DNA of 9,532 nt from the IMG/VR virus record IMGVR_UViG_2671180986_000016. The stretch is one strand, 5' to 3'. Shown here piece by piece: positions 1,649 through 6,533 of the stretch. The notes beneath the pieces are model-generated. The model saw only the letters and a list, made by a program, of their open reading frames with translations. It was not told where the DNA came from and did not search any database. Made by a program: the position numbers and the translations under genes. The DNA is from a virus (taxonomy: Duplodnaviria > Heunggongvirae > Uroviricota > Caudoviricetes). Numbering within the stretch: position 1 is the stretch's first letter; every line of letters starts with the position of its first letter.

Positions 1649-1858
1649 ATGCGTGAAATAAATGAAGATCGCGTAATCCGTGAGGATGAATGTCGTAAGT
1701 TAACTGGAGTGTGCCGCACTACACGTTACGAACTGGAGAAAAAAGGGCGCTTTCCGTCACGTCTTAATCTGGGCGGTCGTTCTGTAGGGTGGCTGCTGTC
1801 CGAGGTTATGGAATGGGTTAAAAGCCGGGATCGCATTAATTCAGGTAAGGCAGTGTAA
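1649..1858 (+). CDS. alpA: AlpA-family (prophage CP4-57-type) transcriptional regulator, 69 aa
   Basis: MREINEDRVIREDECRKLTGVCRTTRYELEKKGRFPSRLNLGGRSVGWLLSEVMEWV... matches the AlpA pattern (HTH followed by LGxRSVGW...E...EW). ATG at 1649 gives the family-typical length of about 70 aa. The ORF-track start GTG 1562 (98 aa) has its AAGAGG motif directly abutting the start codon, so it is less likely. Confidence 0.8.
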   Translation: MREINEDRVIREDECRKLTGVCRTTRYELEKKGRFPSRLNLGGRSVGWLLSEVMEWVKSRDRINSGKAV

Positions 1859-1885
1859 AGGGGAGCATATGACACATAAAACAAA

Positions 1886-1905
1886 GGCGACCTGGGGCGG
1901 TCGCC
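1886..1905. terminator. GC-rich hairpin GGCGACC-TGGGGC-GGTCGCC flanked by A-tract (left) and T-run (right); probable bidirectional intrinsic terminator between convergent alpA and the leftward transcript
   Basis: Perfect 7-bp stem (1886-1892 / 1899-1905) with 6-nt loop. On the minus strand the hairpin is followed by TTTGTTTTAT (reverse complement of 1876-1885), a good U-tract. On the plus strand it is followed by AGTTTGG, a weaker one. Confidence 0.4.
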
Positions 1906-1969
1906 AGTTTGGAAACACTAAACATAAGCATGTCAATGATAGCCGCTATCAGGCTGGTGGGCAATGCTA

Positions 1970-2146
1970 TCAGTCTGTTTCAGTGCGTTGCCATAACTGC
2001 GAAGCTCTCTCCTTTGATGAGTATTCTTTAAGGTACTTCTCAAGGGCAAAAGAACACGGCGCGAATCGTTCTGATTCATGCTCTTTCTTTCTGCGTCGTC
2101 TTTTTCGTGCAGGTGATGTTTTTTTGGTTGATTCTTCGTTGGTCAT
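1970..2146 (-). CDS. Candidate small basic ORF (58 aa, MTNEESTKKTSPARKRRRRKKEHESERFAPCSFALEKYLKEYSSKERASQLWQRTETD); speculative
   Basis: Hand translation of the minus strand: ATG at 2146, stop at 1970-1972. It is in the same frame as the upstream RHH-like gene (TAA at 2204-2206) and 19 codons after it. It ends about 65 bp upstream of the hairpin at 1886-1905. Below the ORF-track length cutoff. Weak SD (AGGCG). Lys/Arg richness could simply reflect a T-rich intergenic stretch. Confidence 0.2.
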   Translation of the reverse strand: MTNEESTKKTSPARKRRRRKKEHESERFAPCSFALEKYLKEYSSKERASQLWQRTETD

Positions 2147-2203
2147 TGTGTGCGCCTGTAAAGCAATGCGCCGGAGTTCCTCACACCACGGCGCTGATAG
2201 TGA

Positions 2204-2509
2204 TTATTCTGATTCTTTGGCCTTGCGGCGCTGGAGTTCTTCGCGTGCAACGGTGATAAGCTGCCCGATTTCCTCCGCTGCCTTGATGCCGATTTGTTCG
2301 ACATTAGCTAGGGCATCCAGTGAAGACACAAGGGGATTTTCTCCACTTCCTTCTGCCTGGCGCCTGGCGATCTCACCGCGTACAGCCGTAACTATAAAAT
2401 TCGCTTTAGTTTCCCCTGGCTGTAGGGATGCCTCAATGCCACTCACTACTTCATGTGGAAATCTGGCATTCAGTTGCTGTGACTTATTGTTAACAGAACT
2501 CCTGGACAT
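2204..2509 (-). CDS. Small regulator, probable ribbon-helix-helix (CopG/Arc-like) DNA-binding protein, 101 aa; candidate repressor of the rightward operon
   Basis: Minus-strand ORF with preferred start ATG at 2509 (reverse complement of 2507-2509), preceded by a strong SD GGAGGTG (reverse complement of 2514-2520) at 6-nt spacing. The longer track ORF (start 2656) would begin upstream of this SD. The N-terminus KSQQLNARFPHEVVSGIEASL fits the RHH beta-strand plus helix pattern (x-R-F-P-x-E). Divergent from the rightward operon across an operator-containing region. Confidence 0.55.
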   Translation of the reverse strand: MSRSSVNNKSQQLNARFPHEVVSGIEASLQPGETKANFIVTAVRGEIARRQAEGSGENPLVSSLDALANVEQIGIKAAEEIGQLITVAREELQRRKAKESE

Positions 2510-2540
2510 GTTTGCACCTCCCATTAATAACGGGATGCAG

Positions 2541-2607
2541 TGTAATACAAAAGTGAATACCAAAAAAGACTTGAAATGGTATTCACCTAAATGTAATGTG
2601 AATACCA
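2541..2607. promoter_or_regulatory. Divergent promoter/operator region: three copies of the 10-bp site GTGAATACCA (two direct, one inverted) overlapping a candidate rightward sigma70 promoter
   Basis: GTGAATACCA at 2553-2562 and 2598-2607; reverse complement TGGTATTCAC at 2577-2586. Centre-to-centre spacing is 24 and 21 bp. Both direct copies are preceded by TGTAAT (2541-2546, 2592-2597). Candidate promoter: -35 TTGAAA (2571-2576), 17-bp spacer, -10 TAATGT (2594-2599). The middle site fills the spacer and the third site overlaps -10/+1. Confidence 0.5.
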
Positions 2608-2709
2608 CAAGTGCTGATACATGCAATTCAGCAATTGAAACGACGAAGCCCCGCAAGTGTCGTTACCACTCGCAGGGCTTCTAACCAACAACGTAAACGA
2701 GGAGCCGTT

Positions 2710-2907
2710 ATGGTTGCCGTAAATCATATACCACACCTTGTACACACACAAACGGCCTTTGTGTGGCGTTTTCTGGCCCTGAGTGCCGGAGAATCTCAAA
2801 TCATCCACGTAACCGCCTGGACGGAACGCGAAGCGCGTAACCGTTGCCCGTCAGGTTGTGTTGCTGTATTCGCCGCCCGTATTCGTCAGGAGGTGTGCCA
2901 TGCCTGA
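2710..2907 (+). CDS. Small protein, 65 aa, first gene of the rightward operon; possibly Icd-like (host cell-division inhibitor) family, function uncertain
   Basis: ATG at 2710 preceded by SD GAGGAG (2699-2704) at 5-nt spacing; stop TGA at 2905-2907 overlaps the next start (ATG 2900) by 8 nt. MVAVNHIPHLVHTQTAFVWRFLALSAGESQIIHVTAWTEREARNRCPSGCVAVFAARIRQEVCHA. The family guess rests on recalled resemblance (W/F-rich N-terminus, EREARxxL, FAxR...QEV) and typical position just upstream of the primase in P4-like islands. Confidence 0.5.
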   Translation: MVAVNHIPHLVHTQTAFVWRFLALSAGESQIIHVTAWTEREARNRCPSGCVAVFAARIRQEVCHA

Positions 2908-3140
2908 CATGACCAATTACCAGTACCTGATTAATCCGCATTTTAACTGTGAGCATGATATTGCTAAAAAGGTTTATTCCGCTGCGGATGGGGCTACTGA
3001 CAATATATCAATGGCTGTTGCGTCAATTGGTAGCCTGATGTGGCATGCGTCAGAAAATGAGGAATATGACGAAAAGGCTATGCGCATTGACATGGGTAAT
3101 ATTGGCTTGTTACTGGCAATGCTTGGGCAGTTTGATATTT
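2900..3140 (+). CDS. Unknown protein, N-terminal 80 aa visible, 3' end hidden in masked block 3141-4461
   Basis: ATG at 2900 (alternative ATG 2909) with strong SD AGGAGG (2888-2893) at 6-nt spacing. MPDMTNYQYLINPHFNCEHDIAKKVYSAADGATDNISMAVASIGSLMWHASENEEYDEKAMRIDMGNIGLLLAMLGQFDI... Its reading frame differs from that of the primase/helicase segment after the mask, so it is probably a separate gene unless the mask hides a frameshift. Confidence 0.45.
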
Positions 3141-5876
3141 NNNNNNNNNNNNNNNNNNNNNNNNNNNNNNNNNNNNNNNNNNNNNNNNNNNNNNNNNNNN
3201 NNNNNNNNNNNNNNNNNNNNNNNNNNNNNNNNNNNNNNNNNNNNNNNNNNNNNNNNNNNNNNNNNNNNNNNNNNNNNNNNNNNNNNNNNNNNNNNNNNNN
3301 NNNNNNNNNNNNNNNNNNNNNNNNNNNNNNNNNNNNNNNNNNNNNNNNNNNNNNNNNNNNNNNNNNNNNNNNNNNNNNNNNNNNNNNNNNNNNNNNNNNN
3401 NNNNNNNNNNNNNNNNNNNNNNNNNNNNNNNNNNNNNNNNNNNNNNNNNNNNNNNNNNNNNNNNNNNNNNNNNNNNNNNNNNNNNNNNNNNNNNNNNNNN
3501 NNNNNNNNNNNNNNNNNNNNNNNNNNNNNNNNNNNNNNNNNNNNNNNNNNNNNNNNNNNNNNNNNNNNNNNNNNNNNNNNNNNNNNNNNNNNNNNNNNNN
3601 NNNNNNNNNNNNNNNNNNNNNNNNNNNNNNNNNNNNNNNNNNNNNNNNNNNNNNNNNNNNNNNNNNNNNNNNNNNNNNNNNNNNNNNNNNNNNNNNNNNN
3701 NNNNNNNNNNNNNNNNNNNNNNNNNNNNNNNNNNNNNNNNNNNNNNNNNNNNNNNNNNNNNNNNNNNNNNNNNNNNNNNNNNNNNNNNNNNNNNNNNNNN
3801 NNNNNNNNNNNNNNNNNNNNNNNNNNNNNNNNNNNNNNNNNNNNNNNNNNNNNNNNNNNNNNNNNNNNNNNNNNNNNNNNNNNNNNNNNNNNNNNNNNNN
3901 NNNNNNNNNNNNNNNNNNNNNNNNNNNNNNNNNNNNNNNNNNNNNNNNNNNNNNNNNNNNNNNNNNNNNNNNNNNNNNNNNNNNNNNNNNNNNNNNNNNN
4001 NNNNNNNNNNNNNNNNNNNNNNNNNNNNNNNNNNNNNNNNNNNNNNNNNNNNNNNNNNNNNNNNNNNNNNNNNNNNNNNNNNNNNNNNNNNNNNNNNNNN
4101 NNNNNNNNNNNNNNNNNNNNNNNNNNNNNNNNNNNNNNNNNNNNNNNNNNNNNNNNNNNNNNNNNNNNNNNNNNNNNNNNNNNNNNNNNNNNNNNNNNNN
4201 NNNNNNNNNNNNNNNNNNNNNNNNNNNNNNNNNNNNNNNNNNNNNNNNNNNNNNNNNNNNNNNNNNNNNNNNNNNNNNNNNNNNNNNNNNNNNNNNNNNN
4301 NNNNNNNNNNNNNNNNNNNNNNNNNNNNNNNNNNNNNNNNNNNNNNNNNNNNNNNNNNNNNNNNNNNNNNNNNNNNNNNNNNNNNNNNNNNNNNNNNNNN
4401 NNNNNNNNNNNNNNNNNNNNNNNNNNNNNNNNNNNNNNNNNNNNNNNNNNNNNNNNNNNNNGCTATTCGCAGAACGCCATTAAATCGGCGGTCGATACCA
4501 TGAAGTTAAGTTTGCCTGTAATGGGGAATACAGCCCGTAACCTGATTGGATTCAGTAACGGGGTATTTGATACCAGAACAGGTAATTTTCGGGAGCATAA
4601 CAAAAACGACTGGTTGTTAATTGCCAGTGAATTACCTTTCAGCCCACCAGCAGAGGGGGAAACGCTGGCAACACATGCGCCGAATTTCTGGAAGTGGTTA
4701 CGCCGTTCGGTGGCTGAGAATGACCGCAAGGCGGATCGCGTACTGACTGTATTATTCATGGTGCTGGCGAACCGGTACGACTGGCAGTTATTCATTGAGG
4801 TAACAGGTCCAGGGGGAAGTGGTAAAAGCGTGATGGCGGAGATTTGCACCATGCTGGCGGGTAAGGCCAACACAGTATCGGCAAGCATGAAGGCGCTGGA
4901 AGATGCAAGGGAACGCGCGTTAGTGGTTGGCTTTTCGCTGATTATCATGCCGGATATGACCCGCTACGCTGGTGATGGGGCAGGGATTAAGGCCATTACA
5001 GGCGGTGACAAGGTGGCAATTGACCCGAAACACAAAGCCCCCTACTCAACGCGTATTCCGGCAGTAGTGCTGGCGGTTAACAATAACGCCATGTCATTCA
5101 GTGACCGCAGCGGGGGGATCTCACGTCGTCGGGTGATATTCAATTTTTCGGAAGTTGTACCGGAGAACGAACGCGACCCCATGCTGGCAGAAAAAATAGA
5201 AGGAGAGCTGGCGGTTGTGATTCGCCACCTGCTTACTCGTTTTTCTGACCAGGACGAAGCTAAACGCCTGCTGTATGAGCAGCAGAAATCAGAAGAAGCT
5301 CTGGTGATAAAACGCGAGGGCGATTCGCTGGTGGACTTCTGCGGCTATCTCATGTCGTCGGTAATGTGTGATGGTCTGTTAGTGGGTAATGCCGAAATTA
5401 TTCCGTTCAGTCCGCGCAGGTATCTTTATCACGCCTATCTGGCATATATGAGGGCACACGGATTCGGTAAACCTGTAACACTGACGCGCTTCGGTAAAGA
5501 TATGCCGGGGGCAATGGCGGAATATGGCAGGGAGTATATGAAACGGAAAACGAAGCACGGTTTGCGTTCAAANNNNNNNNNNNNNNNNNNNNNNNNNNNN
5601 NNNNNNNNNNNNNNNNNNNNNNNNNNNNNNNNNNNNNNNNNNNNNNNNNNNNNNNNNNNNNNNNNNNNNNNNNNNNNNNNNNNNNNNNNNNNNNNNNNNN
5701 NNNNNNNNNNNNNNNNNNNNNNNNNNNNNNNNNNNNNNNNNNNNNNNNNNNNNNNNNNNNNNNNNNNNNNNNNNNNNNNNNNNNNNNNNNNNNNNNNNNN
5801 NNNNNNNNNNNNNNNNNNNNNNNNNNNNNNNNNNNNNNNNNNNNNNNNNNNNNNNNNNNNNNNNNNNNNNNGGTGA
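3141..5876 (+). CDS. P4 alpha-type primase / SF3 (D5-like) replicative helicase; both ends lie in masked sequence, visible part is 4462-5572 (C-terminal helicase region)
   Basis: Visible 370 aa carry Walker A GPGGSGKS, Walker B-like hydrophobic strand ending in D (LIIMPD), and the D5_N / P4-family primase C-terminal domain pattern (NLIGFSNGVFDTRTG..., VVLAVNNNAMSF). The start is somewhere in mask 3141-4461 and the true stop is probably inside mask 5573-5871; the coordinates given are only the envelope of the open frame (first visible in-frame stop TGA 5874-5876). Confidence 0.75.
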   Translation, partial: XXXXXXXXXXXXXXXXXXXXXXXXXXXXXXXXXXXXXXXXXXXXXXXXXXXXXXXXXXXXXXXXXXXXXXXXXXXXXXXXXXXXXXXXXXXXXXXXXXXXXXXXXXXXXXXXXXXXXXXXXXXXXXXXXXXXXXXXXXXXXXXXXXXXXXXXXXXXXXXXXXXXXXXXXXXXXXXXXXXXXXXXXXXXXXXXXXXXXXXXXXXXXXXXXXXXXXXXXXXXXXXXXXXXXXXXXXXXXXXXXXXXXXXXXXXXXXXXXXXXXXXXXXXXXXXXXXXXXXXXXXXXXXXXXXXXXXXXXXXXXXXXXXXXXXXXXXXXXXXXXXXXXXXXXXXXXXXXXXXXXXXXXXXXXXXXXXXXXXXXXXXXXXXXXXXXXXXXXXXXXXXXXXXXXXXXXXXXXXXXXXXXXXXXXXXXXXXXXXXXXXXXXXXXXXXXXXXXXXXXXYSQNAIKSAVDTMKLSLPVMGNTARNLIGFSNGVFDTRTGNFREHNKNDWLLIASELPFSPPAEGETLATHAPNFWKWLRRSVAENDRKADRVLTVLFMVLANRYDWQLFIEVTGPGGSGKSVMAEICTMLAGKANTVSASMKALEDARERALVVGFSLIIMPDMTRYAGDGAGIKAITGGDKVAIDPKHKAPYSTRIPAVVLAVNNNAMSFSDRSGGISRRRVIFNFSEVVPENERDPMLAEKIEGELAVVIRHLLTRFSDQDEAKRLLYEQQKSEEALVIKREGDSLVDFCGYLMSSVMCDGLLVGNAEIIPFSPRRYLYHAYLAYMRAHGFGKPVTLTRFGKDMPGAMAEYGREYMKRKTKHGLRSXXXXXXXXXXXXXXXXXXXXXXXXXXXXXXXXXXXXXXXXXXXXXXXXXXXXXXXXXXXXXXXXXXXXXXXXXXXXXXXXXXXXXXXXXXXXXXXXXXXXX

Positions 5877-5964
5877 ACAGTTGGTGAATAGTTTTTGTGA
5901 AACTGTTAACCCATTAACATCATGAATAAAAAGGGAAAATTGCAAAAGGTGAACAGGTGAAGGG
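5872..5964. repeat. Iteron cluster of P4 alpha type-I sites (TGTTCACC, seen here as its reverse complement GGTGAACA); probable ori/crr-like replication region
   Basis: GGTGAACAG at 5872-5880 and 5948-5956 (perfect). Degenerate copies GGTGAATAG at 5883-5891 and GTGAAGGG at 5957-5964. Flanking repeats AAAATTGCAAAA (5936-5947) and AAAATGCAAAA (5967-5977). Located immediately downstream of the primase/helicase gene; more copies may lie in the adjacent mask. Confidence 0.55.
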
Positions 5965-6007
5965 TTAAAATGCAAAAATTTTATTTTATTGCTGTGAGGT
6001 AAAGCCT

Positions 6008-6253
6008 GTGACAACGAAGCACGCCAAAAAACCACAATCTCACGCCCTTGATTTGACAGAACACTGGCTGAGGGTGGCGATAAAAATCATCGACCGCAAC
6101 GCCGGGGAAGGATACGCGAAAGCACATCCCGAACTGATAAGCGCATTCATGACCACGACGGCGGCAAACTTTGCCACGCTGACAGAACGGGAGATTGCCG
6201 AAGCGGAACAGGTGACAACCATCAACGTTAAAACCGGAGAGCAGACAGCATGA
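6008..6253 (+). CDS. Hypothetical protein, 81 aa
   Basis: GTG start at 6008 with SD GAGGT (5996-6000) at 7-nt spacing; stop TGA at 6251-6253 overlaps the next gene's ATG (ATGA). Protein-like composition (MTTKHAKKPQSHALDLTEHWLRVAIKIIDRNAGEGYAKAHPELISAF...). No family recognised. Confidence 0.5.
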   Translation: MTTKHAKKPQSHALDLTEHWLRVAIKIIDRNAGEGYAKAHPELISAFMTTTAANFATLTEREIAEAEQVTTINVKTGEQTA

Positions 6254-6533
6254 CAGCACAGATAGCGGCTTACGGGCGGCTGGTGGCTGACCCGCAGTTA
6301 AAGACCACCAGCAAGGGTACGCAAATGACGATGGCGAGTATGGCGGTTCCCCTGCCGTGCAGCCAGGCAGATGACGGAACGGCGACGATATGGTTATCCG
6401 TCCTGGCGTTTGGCAGACAGGCTGACGCACTGGCAAAGCACCAGAAAGGCGAGCTGGTGAGCGTGGCGGGTAACATGCAGGTAAGCCAGTGGACAGGCCA
6501 GAACGGAGAAACGCGGCAGGGCTGGCAGGTTAT
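6250..6533 (+). CDS. Single-stranded DNA-binding protein-like OB-fold protein; 3' end in masked block 6534-7327
   Basis: ATG at 6250 with SD GGAGA (6236-6240). The visible 95 aa align by eye to the bacterial SSB OB fold: TIWLSVLAFGRQADALAKHQKGELVSVAGNMQVSQWTGQNGETRQGWQV compares with E. coli SSB [52 protein letters not shown]. Confidence 0.7.

What the first reader, a model, noticed from the sequence alone, without database searches (positions are those of the whole stretch)
5872..5964. P4 alpha-type iterons immediately downstream of the primase/helicase gene: probable origin or cis-replication region
In P4 the alpha protein binds type-I octamers TGTTCACC clustered in ori and in crr. Two perfect and two degenerate copies appear here in reverse complement within about 90 bp, next to A/T-rich AAAAT(T)GCAAAA repeats. 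The location just 3' of the helicase gene mirrors the P4 crr position. More copies may be hidden in mask 5573-5871.
Basis: partly seen in the sequence, partly recalled or inferred. Interest (0 to 1): 0.55.

Follow-up and report, generated by a model that had tools for sequence, protein, structure and literature searches.

The report
Replication origin of a phage satellite
The repeated 8-base motif marks the replication origin of a phage-parasitic chromosomal island (a PICI), and it uses the same protein-binding repeats as the classic satellite phage P4; origins of this kind are already described, so the finding is correct but fairly ordinary.

Summary
GGTGAACA (reverse complement of TGTTCACC) is exact at 5872 and 5948, with degenerate copies at 5883, 5904 and 5956. 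No dinucleotide shuffle out of 1000 gave such a cluster.

The N masks are inflated. A near-identical contig, L082, shows that mask 5573-5871 hides the last 20 codons of the helicase gene and six more exact copies. That gives 8 exact octamers in a 303-bp intergenic region. In relatives the density is about 23 per kb there, against 0.19 per kb elsewhere.

The element is an enterobacterial PICI, not P4. Its 605-aa "primase family" protein is 49% identical to P4 alpha across the helicase and the origin-binding domain (PDB 1KA8, E=2e-24). It lacks alpha's zinc-ribbon and Toprim primase domains.

The visible half lines up with the P4 ori iteron cluster at nearly the same spacings. The hidden half resembles a crr unit. 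Relatives keep this layout while all their iterons change together with a C-terminal protein segment.

EcCICFT073, whose pri-rep-ori was tested functionally in 2018, has the same layout with TGTCTACC. Verdict: this is the island's replication origin, a new member of a known kind. The underappreciated point is its clear homology to the P4 replicon.

The parts
4462..5572 (+). Visible part of the P4-alpha-like SF3 helicase / origin-binding protein gene ('Pri-Rep', annotated 'DNA primase family protein'). The gene starts in mask 3141-4461 and ends in mask 5573-5871.
   Evidence: Translation. The full 605-aa protein comes from the proxy L082:1860-3677. Pfam domains D5_N, DUF5906 and Pox_D5. The close relative L001's protein is 49% identical to P4 alpha residues 313-776. 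Residues 502-598 match PDB 1KA8 at E=2.3e-24.
5573..5871 (.). Masked stretch of 299 N, where the real sequence is about 228 nt. It holds the last 20 codons and stop of the helicase gene, then the left half of the origin. That half has two tandem plus-strand iterons, a 35-bp AT-rich spacer, one minus-strand and two plus-strand iterons, a second spacer, and the first minus-strand iteron of the right-hand triplet.
   Evidence: The proxy L082:3617-3844 has flanks identical to the window. Six exact octamers lie at L082 3708+, 3718+, 3761-, 3782+, 3801+ and 3835-.
5872..5879 (-). Exact iteron (GGTGAACA on the plus strand). It is the second of three tandem copies at 10/11-bp spacing.
5883..5890 (-). 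Iteron with one mismatch (GGTGAATA), the third of the tandem triplet.
   Evidence: It aligns with P4 ori copy 9331.
5904..5911 (+). Opposite-orientation iteron with one mismatch (TGTTAACC). It is a perfect TGTTCACC in relatives such as L001.
   Evidence: It aligns with P4 ori copy 9353.
5912..5947 (.). AT-rich spacer of about 27% GC, a candidate DNA-unwinding region. It matches the 35-bp AT-rich spacer in P4 ori.
5948..5955 (-). Exact iteron (GGTGAACA).
   Evidence: It aligns with the P4 ori pair 9396/9406.
5956..5963 (-). Degenerate iteron (GGTGAAGG, two mismatches). It is a perfect copy at this position in Klebsiella and Pectobacterium relatives. The same variant occurs in P4 crr.
5964..6007 (.). 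AT-rich tail (TTAAAATGCAAAAATTTTATTTTATTG), followed by the ribosome-binding site of the next gene.
   Evidence: TAAAAT after the last iteron pair is shared with P4 ori.
6008..6253 (+). 81-aa conserved protein of unknown function, the first gene downstream of the origin.
   Evidence: phrog_1231, E=5e-49
6250..6533 (+). Start of the island's own single-stranded DNA-binding protein gene, which continues into mask 6534-7327.
   Evidence: Pfam SSB on L082:4223-4642. Annotated as SSB in relatives.

Best explanation
The region is the replication origin of an enterobacterial phage-inducible chromosomal island (PICI). It spans the roughly 300 bp between the helicase gene and the 81-aa ORF, and window 5872-5964 is its right half.

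The island's 605-aa protein is a P4-alpha-type SF3 helicase with a C-terminal winged-helix origin-binding domain. That domain binds the (A)CTGTTCACC iterons. The iterons form four clusters, with tandem copies 10-11 bp apart and clusters in opposite orientation, around AT-rich spacers of 22-30% GC.

Binding of many protomers is proposed to nucleate the helicase on the DNA and melt an AT-rich spacer. Host polymerase then replicates the excised island, and the island's own SSB, encoded just downstream, coats the single strands.

Shown here:
- the iteron array and its strong enrichment;
- homology of the protein's C-terminal domain to the solved P4 origin-binding domain;
- collinearity with P4 ori;
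- concerted change of iterons and protein in relatives;
- the same layout as the functionally tested EcCICFT073 ori.

Inferred:
- direct binding of the protein to the iterons;
- the site of melting;
- the source of primers. The protein lacks alpha's zinc-ribbon and Toprim primase domains, so priming must come from its uncharacterised N-terminal 140 aa or from the host primase.
For: 1. Eight exact octamers lie in 303 bp of the proxy L082, with only one other in 6.6 kb. In 70 relatives the density is 23.3 per kb inside against 0.19 per kb outside. In whole PICIs, 8-9 of 9-10 copies sit in this one intergenic region.
2. C-terminal residues 502-598 match the P4 alpha origin-binding domain, PDB 1KA8, at E=2.3e-24. 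The close relative L001's protein is 49% identical to alpha across the helicase and binding domain.
3. The right half aligns with P4 ori iteron for iteron. Start-to-start spacings are 10, 11, 21, 44, 8 against 10, 11, 22, 43, 10, and the alignment z-score is 15.8. The left half shares two tandem copies, a 43-bp start-to-start distance and the spacer motif CTTTTATxTCAG with the P4 crr units.
4. Relatives from other genera keep the same layout, but all copies switch together to TGTCTACC, TCTCCACC or CTGTCCGC. Proteins 86-90% identical in the helicase differ in iteron exactly when a 26-residue C-terminal segment is replaced: 46-50% identity plus a 5-aa insertion, against 77% in those that keep TGTTCACC.
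5. EcCICFT073 has the same gene order and origin layout. Its pri-rep-ori supported maintenance of a temperature-sensitive plasmid, and deleting rep or ori impaired it (PMC6092414).
6. The spacers are AT-rich. No RNA family, tRNA, promoter or terminator offers another explanation for the region.
Against: - No experiment exists for this allele. Binding and firing are inferred.
- The masked half is read from a near-identical proxy, not from the window itself.
- The protein has no recognisable primase domain, so the initiation chemistry is incomplete.
- Iteron specificity does not map only to the variable C-terminal segment. L154 and L156 share that segment but have different repeats. EcCICFT073 reads TGTCTACC with a quite different domain.
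- Within close relatives, iterons are not more conserved than spacers, because the whole region is about 96-99% conserved.
Confidence: 0.85

Rival explanations
1. The array is only a crr-like cis enhancer. The true initiation site would lie elsewhere in the island, as in P4, where ori and crr are 4.7 kb apart.
For: The position immediately 3' of the helicase gene is where crr sits in P4. The left half resembles a crr unit.
Against: The right half is collinear with P4 ori itself. Complete islands have no second cluster: 8-9 of 9-10 exact copies are in this one region. The EcCICFT073 rep-ori fragment alone maintained a plasmid.
Confidence: 0.05
2. The repeats are operator sites. Through them the helicase protein, or another island regulator, would control transcription of the downstream ORF81-SSB genes, with no origin function.
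For: The array lies directly upstream of the next genes. No terminator follows the helicase gene, so transcription reads through the region. Iteron-binding initiators often autoregulate; this is general knowledge of iteron plasmids.
Against: No sigma-70-like promoter was found on the coding strand. Eight to eleven sites in four clusters around AT-rich spacers go well beyond an operator. The layout matches P4 ori and the tested EcCICFT073 ori. This role could also coexist with origin function.
Confidence: 0.05
3. The element is a P4-like satellite and this is its crr in the strict sense.
For: The iteron sequence is identical to P4's and the helicase and binding domain are alpha-like.
Against: - Gene content is that of a PICI: int, AlpA-type regulator, DUF4222, short Pri-Rep, SSB and a ClpP-like prohead protease/capsid fusion. 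No sid, psu or delta gene is annotated in the relatives.
- The protein lacks alpha's zinc-ribbon and Toprim domains.
- The ori-like and crr-like units are fused.
- No P4 type-2 repeats were found.
Confidence: 0.03
4. The octamers are a chance cluster in an AT-rich intergenic region.
For: Two exact copies somewhere in the window occur in 7 of 200 shuffles.
Against: No shuffle out of 1000 gives four near-copies in 93 bp. Six more copies lie under the mask. Enrichment across 70 relatives is about 120-fold.
Confidence: 0.01

Closest known systems
Bacteriophage P4 ori (NC_001609 9310-9413, type-1 repeats bound by the alpha protein)
   Same: The octamer TGTTCACC is the same, as is the extended CTGTTCACC consensus. 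The order, orientation and spacing of six copies match: three tandem, one inverted, an AT-rich spacer of about 35 bp, then two tandem. The cognate protein has a homologous helicase and origin-binding domain.
   Different: - In P4, ori lies 2.3 kb upstream of alpha and needs a distant crr. Here it abuts a crr-like unit directly 3' of the helicase gene.
- No type-2 decamer repeats are present.
- The protein lacks alpha's primase domains.
Bacteriophage P4 crr (NC_001609 4291-4590, two 120-bp units 3' of alpha)
   Same: It sits immediately 3' of the helicase gene. The hidden left half shares two tandem copies, a 43-bp distance to an inverted copy, and the CTTTTATxTCAG spacer motif.
   Different: - There is one unit, not two.
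- Collinearity is lost after about 65 bp.
- The unit is inverted relative to the gene.
- No terminator lies between gene and repeats.
- No DnaA box is present, whereas P4 has a perfect one at 4281.
- The left half matches the inverted ori triplet even better (z=17), so calling it crr-like is only moderately supported.
Gram-negative PICI origins, prototype EcCICFT073 (Fillol-Salom et al. 2018, PMC6092414)
   Same: The island type and gene order are the same: int, alpA, DUF4222, pri-rep, ori, small ORF, SSB. The origin is immediately 3' of pri-rep, with iteron sets flanking AT-rich DNA and an identical cluster layout.
   Different: EcCICFT073 uses TGTCTACC. Its Pri-Rep is only 48% identical overall: 45% in the helicase, 35% in the binding domain, but 66% in the N-terminal domain. 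The allele in this window has not been tested.
[quoted passage not shown]
   Same: The position and general logic match, as stated in PMC6092414.
   Different: The comparison rests on the paper's description only. Sequences were not compared here.

Membership tests
P4-type (alpha / type-1 iteron) replicon | Multiple copies of the octamer TGTTCACC in both orientations | tested here: met
   Eight exact copies and three degenerate copies (one or two mismatches) in 303 bp of the proxy; two exact and three degenerate copies visible in the window. P4 annotation and counts.
P4-type (alpha / type-1 iteron) replicon | Cognate protein with an alpha-type SF3 helicase and a C-terminal origin-binding domain | tested here: met
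   The close relative L001's protein is 49% identical to alpha 313-776. The proxy L082 protein matches PDB 1KA8 at E=2.3e-24.
P4-type (alpha / type-1 iteron) replicon | The same protein carries a zinc-ribbon plus Toprim primase domain | tested here: not met
   Pfam finds Zn_Ribbon_Prim and Toprim in alpha but not in this protein. The N-terminal 140 aa match only phrog_2850, of unknown function.
P4-type (alpha / type-1 iteron) replicon | Bipartite cis elements: ori and crr separated by kilobases, with type-2 repeats in ori | tested here: not met
   There is a single fused cluster and no second cluster in whole islands. No type-2 repeats were found.
P4-type (alpha / type-1 iteron) replicon | Protein-dependent replication from the site | not testable with these tools
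   Needs a plasmid replication assay or footprinting.
Gram-negative PICI origin (Fillol-Salom 2018) | Located immediately 3' of the pri-rep gene of a PICI | tested here: met
   The helicase stop is at L082 3675-3677 and the array spans 3708-3936. The PICI gene set is shown.
Gram-negative PICI origin (Fillol-Salom 2018) | [quoted passage not shown] | tested here: met
   The definition comes from PMC6092414.
Gram-negative PICI origin (Fillol-Salom 2018) | Same architecture as the functionally tested EcCICFT073 ori | tested here: met
   Iteron maps compared side by side.
Gram-negative PICI origin (Fillol-Salom 2018) | Supports Pri-Rep-dependent autonomous replication | not testable with these tools
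   Shown only for EcCICFT073.

The most novel reading that the evidence does not exclude
Enterobacterial PICI replicons and the P4 replicon may be one homologous family. The PICI origin would then be a fused P4 'crr + ori'.

This allele keeps P4's exact iteron and a binding domain about 50% identical to alpha's. P4 alpha and this PICI helicase could therefore recognise each other's origins. Co-resident satellites of two different families might then cross-activate, titrate or exclude one another.

Published overviews treat the satellite primase-replicases as only distantly related or as analogues.
Probability: 0.3. Interest if true: 0.5.

Novelty: new member of a known kind. Interest (0 to 1): 0.3.

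Why it matters
It locates the origin of a very common E. coli island. At least 506 of 5426 complete E. coli genomes carry this helicase-origin module.

It also links two satellite families that are usually treated as unrelated in their replication functions. The PICI module here is a clear homologue of the P4 alpha/ori/crr system, with the same iteron.

The natural variants give a ready map for engineering or predicting origin specificity, and for asking whether co-resident satellites interfere at the replication level. In these variants all iterons of an origin change together with a short C-terminal segment of the helicase.

None of this changes the known picture of how PICIs replicate.

Tried and rejected
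- An exact 59-mer from the window found nothing in the GTDB representative genomes. No E. coli complete genome is identical; the best is 97.3%. The near-exact source-like contig came from IMG/VR instead.
- Conservation of iterons versus spacers among 50 distinct close relatives was uninformative, because the whole region is almost invariant.
- Promoter and terminator scans were negative. So were scans for DnaA boxes, IHF sites, GATC and P4 type-2 repeats, for Rfam families and for tRNAs.
- DUF4222, the gene just upstream of the helicase, shows no similarity to P4 Cnr, which holds the same position in P4.
- A single-sequence AlphaFold model of the visible part of the binding domain was unusable, with pLDDT 41. 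Calling the variable segment the 'wing' of the winged helix therefore rests on general fold topology, not on a model.
- Two 45-49 kb fetches of CFT073 missed the island before the third found it.
- The classic P4 papers (Ziegelin 1993; Lindqvist 1993) are not held. That alpha binds the type-1 repeats is therefore cited from my own knowledge, together with the NC_001609 annotation.
- The AAAAT(T)GCAAAA pair was rejected as a functional repeat, because it is not conserved.
Full report
OBSERVATION

The window shows GGTGAACA, the reverse complement of TGTTCACC, exactly at 5872-5879 and 5948-5955. These are the only two exact copies in the 6371 visible bases, against 0.25 expected.

One-mismatch copies lie at 5883-5890 (GGTGAATA) and, on the other strand, at 5904-5911 (TGTTAACC). 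GGTGAAGG at 5956-5963 is a two-mismatch copy.

Four copies with at most one mismatch fall within 93 bp. None of 1000 dinucleotide-preserving shuffles reached that; the maximum was three.

The GenBank record of P4 (NC_001609) annotates 'ori type 1 repeats'. These read TGTTCACC, and all 11 exact copies in P4 lie in ori (9310-9413) or crr (4291-4590).

WHAT THE MASK HIDES

The window has six runs of N. An IMG/VR contig, L082, matches every unmasked window segment from 1649 to 9022 at 100%, with one mismatch in total. At each mask it is 1.2-1.3 times shorter than the run of N. The masks are therefore not length-preserving.

All 83 relatives examined have 217-228 nt where the window has 299 N. I use L082:3617-3844 as a proxy for mask 5573-5871.

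In L082 the helicase gene ends at 3675-3677. The ORF listed as '3045..5876' is thus a mask artefact. The next gene starts at L082 3981, which is window 6008.

The 303-bp intergenic region holds eight exact octamers. Six of them lie under the mask. It also holds the degenerate copies. Only one other exact copy exists in the 6.6-kb contig.

The repeated unit is really about 10 nt, ACTGTTCACC. P4's copies have the same extended consensus.

Across 70 relatives the density is 23.3 exact copies per kb in this region, against 0.19 per kb outside it. In complete islands of about 10.5 kb, 8-9 of 9-10 copies are here.

WHAT THE ELEMENT IS

Close relatives in E. coli chromosomes carry this gene set:
- integrase;
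- a small helix-turn-helix (AlpA-type) regulator;
- Icd-like and DUF4222 genes;
- a 'DNA primase family protein';
- a small ORF;
- SSB;
- sometimes PerC;
- then capsid-related genes only.

The window's own genes give the same picture. This is the organisation of Gram-negative phage-inducible chromosomal islands (PICIs). Some relatives, such as L001, are of the capsid-forming type.

At least 506 of 5426 complete E. coli genomes carry the helicase-origin module at 80% coverage or more.

THE PROTEIN

The 605-aa protein of the proxy has Pfam domains D5_N, DUF5906 and Pox_D5. It also matches the TIGR01613 'primase, P4 family' C-terminal region.

The near-identical L001 protein is 49% identical to P4 alpha over alpha residues 313-776, which cover the helicase and the origin-binding domain. 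It has none of alpha's zinc-ribbon or Toprim primase domains.

Residues 502-598 of the L082 protein match the solved P4 origin-binding domain, PDB 1KA8, at E=2.3e-24. The N-terminal 140 residues match only phrog_2850, a family of unknown function.

ARCHITECTURE COMPARED WITH P4

The right half of the region (L082 3826-3950, roughly window 5853-5977) aligns with the P4 ori cluster copy for copy. It has three tandem copies, one inverted copy, an AT-rich spacer of about 35 bp, then two tandem copies. Start-to-start spacings are 10, 11, 21, 44, 8, against 10, 11, 22, 43, 10 in P4. The local alignment z-score is 15.8 against shuffles.

The hidden left half shares three features with each P4 crr unit: two tandem copies, a 43-bp distance to an inverted copy, and the spacer motif CTTTTATxTCAG (z about 7).

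The left half is also an inverted copy of the right-hand tandem pair. This is a 36-nt imperfect inverted repeat with arms 105 nt apart, and it scores z=17 against the reverse complement of ori. Its crr-likeness is therefore only moderately supported.

On the P4 map the order and orientation are crr, then 4.7 kb including alpha, then ori. That matches left half then right half here, with the two parts fused.

GC content falls to 22-30% in the spacers, against 45-60% in the flanking genes.

There are no DnaA boxes, consensus IHF sites, GATC sites or P4 type-2 repeats. There is no promoter on the coding strand and no terminator. No Rfam family or tRNA is present.

COMPARATIVE EVIDENCE FOR PROTEIN-DNA RECOGNITION

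I fetched 80 loci from other species that encode relatives 55-88% identical. Most have a repeat array directly 3' of the gene.

Many keep TGTTCACC:
- Klebsiella, Citrobacter, Raoultella, Kluyvera ascorbata, Pluralibacter and Pectobacterium;
- the long alpha-type genes of Xenorhabdus and Photorhabdus;
- Zobellella.

Others have the same cluster layout, but every copy is changed:
- TGTCTACC in L093, L095, L096 and L101;
- TCTCCACC in L098;
- CTGTCCGC in L100.

The change tracks a 26-residue segment near the protein's C-terminus. L093, L095 and L096 are 86-90% identical to the window-type protein in the helicase and 79-85% in the first part of the binding domain. In this segment they are only 46-50% identical and carry a 5-aa insertion. 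L089 and L091 have the same helicase identity, keep 77% identity in the segment, and keep TGTTCACC.

By general winged-helix topology this segment would be the beta-hairpin wing. That is an inference, because my single-sequence model was unusable.

Two caveats apply. L154 and L156 share the segment but differ in repeat. EcCICFT073 reads TGTCTACC with a much more divergent domain.

WHAT IS ALREADY KNOWN

Fillol-Salom et al. [quoted passage not shown] They report four Pri-Rep alleles in E. coli.

They also showed that the EcCICFT073 rep-ori fragment maintains a temperature-sensitive plasmid, and that deleting rep or ori impairs this.

I located EcCICFT073 in CFT073 (L167). It has the same gene order and the same origin layout with TGTCTACC. 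Its Pri-Rep is 48% identical to the window-type protein.

The feature in this window is therefore a further allele of a described kind of origin.

One point does not seem to be appreciated in the papers I could read. [quoted passage not shown] A 2023 survey suggests that satellite primase-replicases are analogues rather than homologues. Yet this allele is a plain homologue of the P4 replicon, down to the iteron sequence and spacing. The classic P4 papers are not in the library, so I cannot exclude that this was noted elsewhere.

MECHANISM

The most likely sequence of events is as follows.
1. After induction the island's operon is transcribed through the helicase gene and the origin. No terminator is predicted there.
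2. The helicase protein binds the iterons through its C-terminal domain.
3. Clustered, helically phased sites in opposite orientations around AT-rich DNA promote helicase loading and melting.
4. The island's own SSB, encoded just downstream, coats the single strands, and host enzymes complete replication.

The array, the domain homology, the collinearity with P4 ori, the concerted variation and the functional precedent are shown. Binding, the melting site and the source of primers are inferred.

Confidence that this is the island's origin, recognised by the adjacent protein, is 0.85.

Rivals carry little weight (see the rival entries):
- a crr-like enhancer with the origin elsewhere;
- a pure operator array;
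- a true P4 satellite;
- chance.

VERDICT

There are three corrections. The element is a PICI rather than P4. The visible part is the ori-like half. The AAAATGCAAAA 'repeats' are not conserved.

Novelty: a new member of a known kind.

Interest is modest (0.3). The most novel reading left open is replication-level cross-talk between PICIs and P4 satellites that share the iteron. I give it a probability of about 0.3.

Noticed in passing
window masks 3141-4461, 5573-5871, 6534-7327, 7932-8274, 8363-8493, 8586-8858: Every run of N is 1.2-1.3 times longer than the matching stretch in the otherwise identical contig L082. Distances and ORFs that span masks are therefore artefacts, for example '3045..5876, 943 aa' and '6250..7383'.
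   Followed up: yes
L082:1860-2280 (inside window mask 3141-4461): The 'primase family' protein has no recognisable primase domain. Its N-terminal 140 aa match only phrog_2850, of unknown function. This domain is mosaic: it is 66% identical to EcCICFT073's, while the helicase is only 45% identical, and it is absent or unrelated in Pectobacterium and Serratia relatives. How these islands prime DNA synthesis is unclear.
   Followed up: partly
L093, L095, L096, L101, L098, L100 (3' of the helicase gene) and the last ~40 residues of their proteins: These look like natural specificity swaps. All iterons of an origin change together (TGTCTACC, TCTCCACC, CTGTCCGC), along with a short C-terminal protein segment that carries 1- or 5-residue insertions. 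The rest of the protein stays 73-90% identical.
   Followed up: partly
L082:3738-3752 (masked in window); P4 L003:4344-4358 and 4524-4538; L167:38047-38062: A non-iteron motif in the first AT-rich spacer, TTTTAT(A/T)TCAG(T/A), is shared by this island and both P4 crr units. EcCICFT073, which uses a different iteron, has the loosely similar TTTAATTCAGTA. It could be a melting or priming site, or a host-factor site. It is one mismatch from the IHF consensus.
   Followed up: partly
L003 (P4) 4281-4289: A perfect DnaA box, TTATCCACA, sits at the outer edge of P4 crr. The island's origin has none, even allowing one mismatch.
   Followed up: no
L082:2414-2421 (inside window mask 3141-4461): There is one extra exact TGTTCACC inside the helicase coding sequence. 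Most relatives also have one or two copies outside the origin. It may be chance, and I did not examine it further.
   Followed up: no
L113, L114, L115, L118, L149 (Xenorhabdus ehlersii) and other Xenorhabdus/Photorhabdus loci: Single genomes carry up to five long alpha-type genes, each followed by TGTTCACC/TATTCACC-type repeats. Several integrated elements with the same iteron can evidently coexist, which bears on the cross-talk idea.
   Followed up: no
L159-L164 (Pantoea/Erwinia): Relatives about 55% identical show no repeat array within 350 bp 3' of the gene. Their origin must be elsewhere or built differently.
   Followed up: no
window 8522-9532 (L082:5305-6450): The last gene in the window begins with a ClpP-type protease domain. 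In the relative L002 it is annotated as a ClpP-like prohead protease/major capsid fusion. This is an unusual capsid-related gene for an island that lacks terminase and tail genes.
   Followed up: no
window 1869-2684 (L082:221-1036): A 271-aa ORF between the AlpA-type regulator and the replication genes has no Pfam or PHROG match. In some E. coli relatives the matching position is annotated as a truncated hypothetical gene.
   Followed up: no
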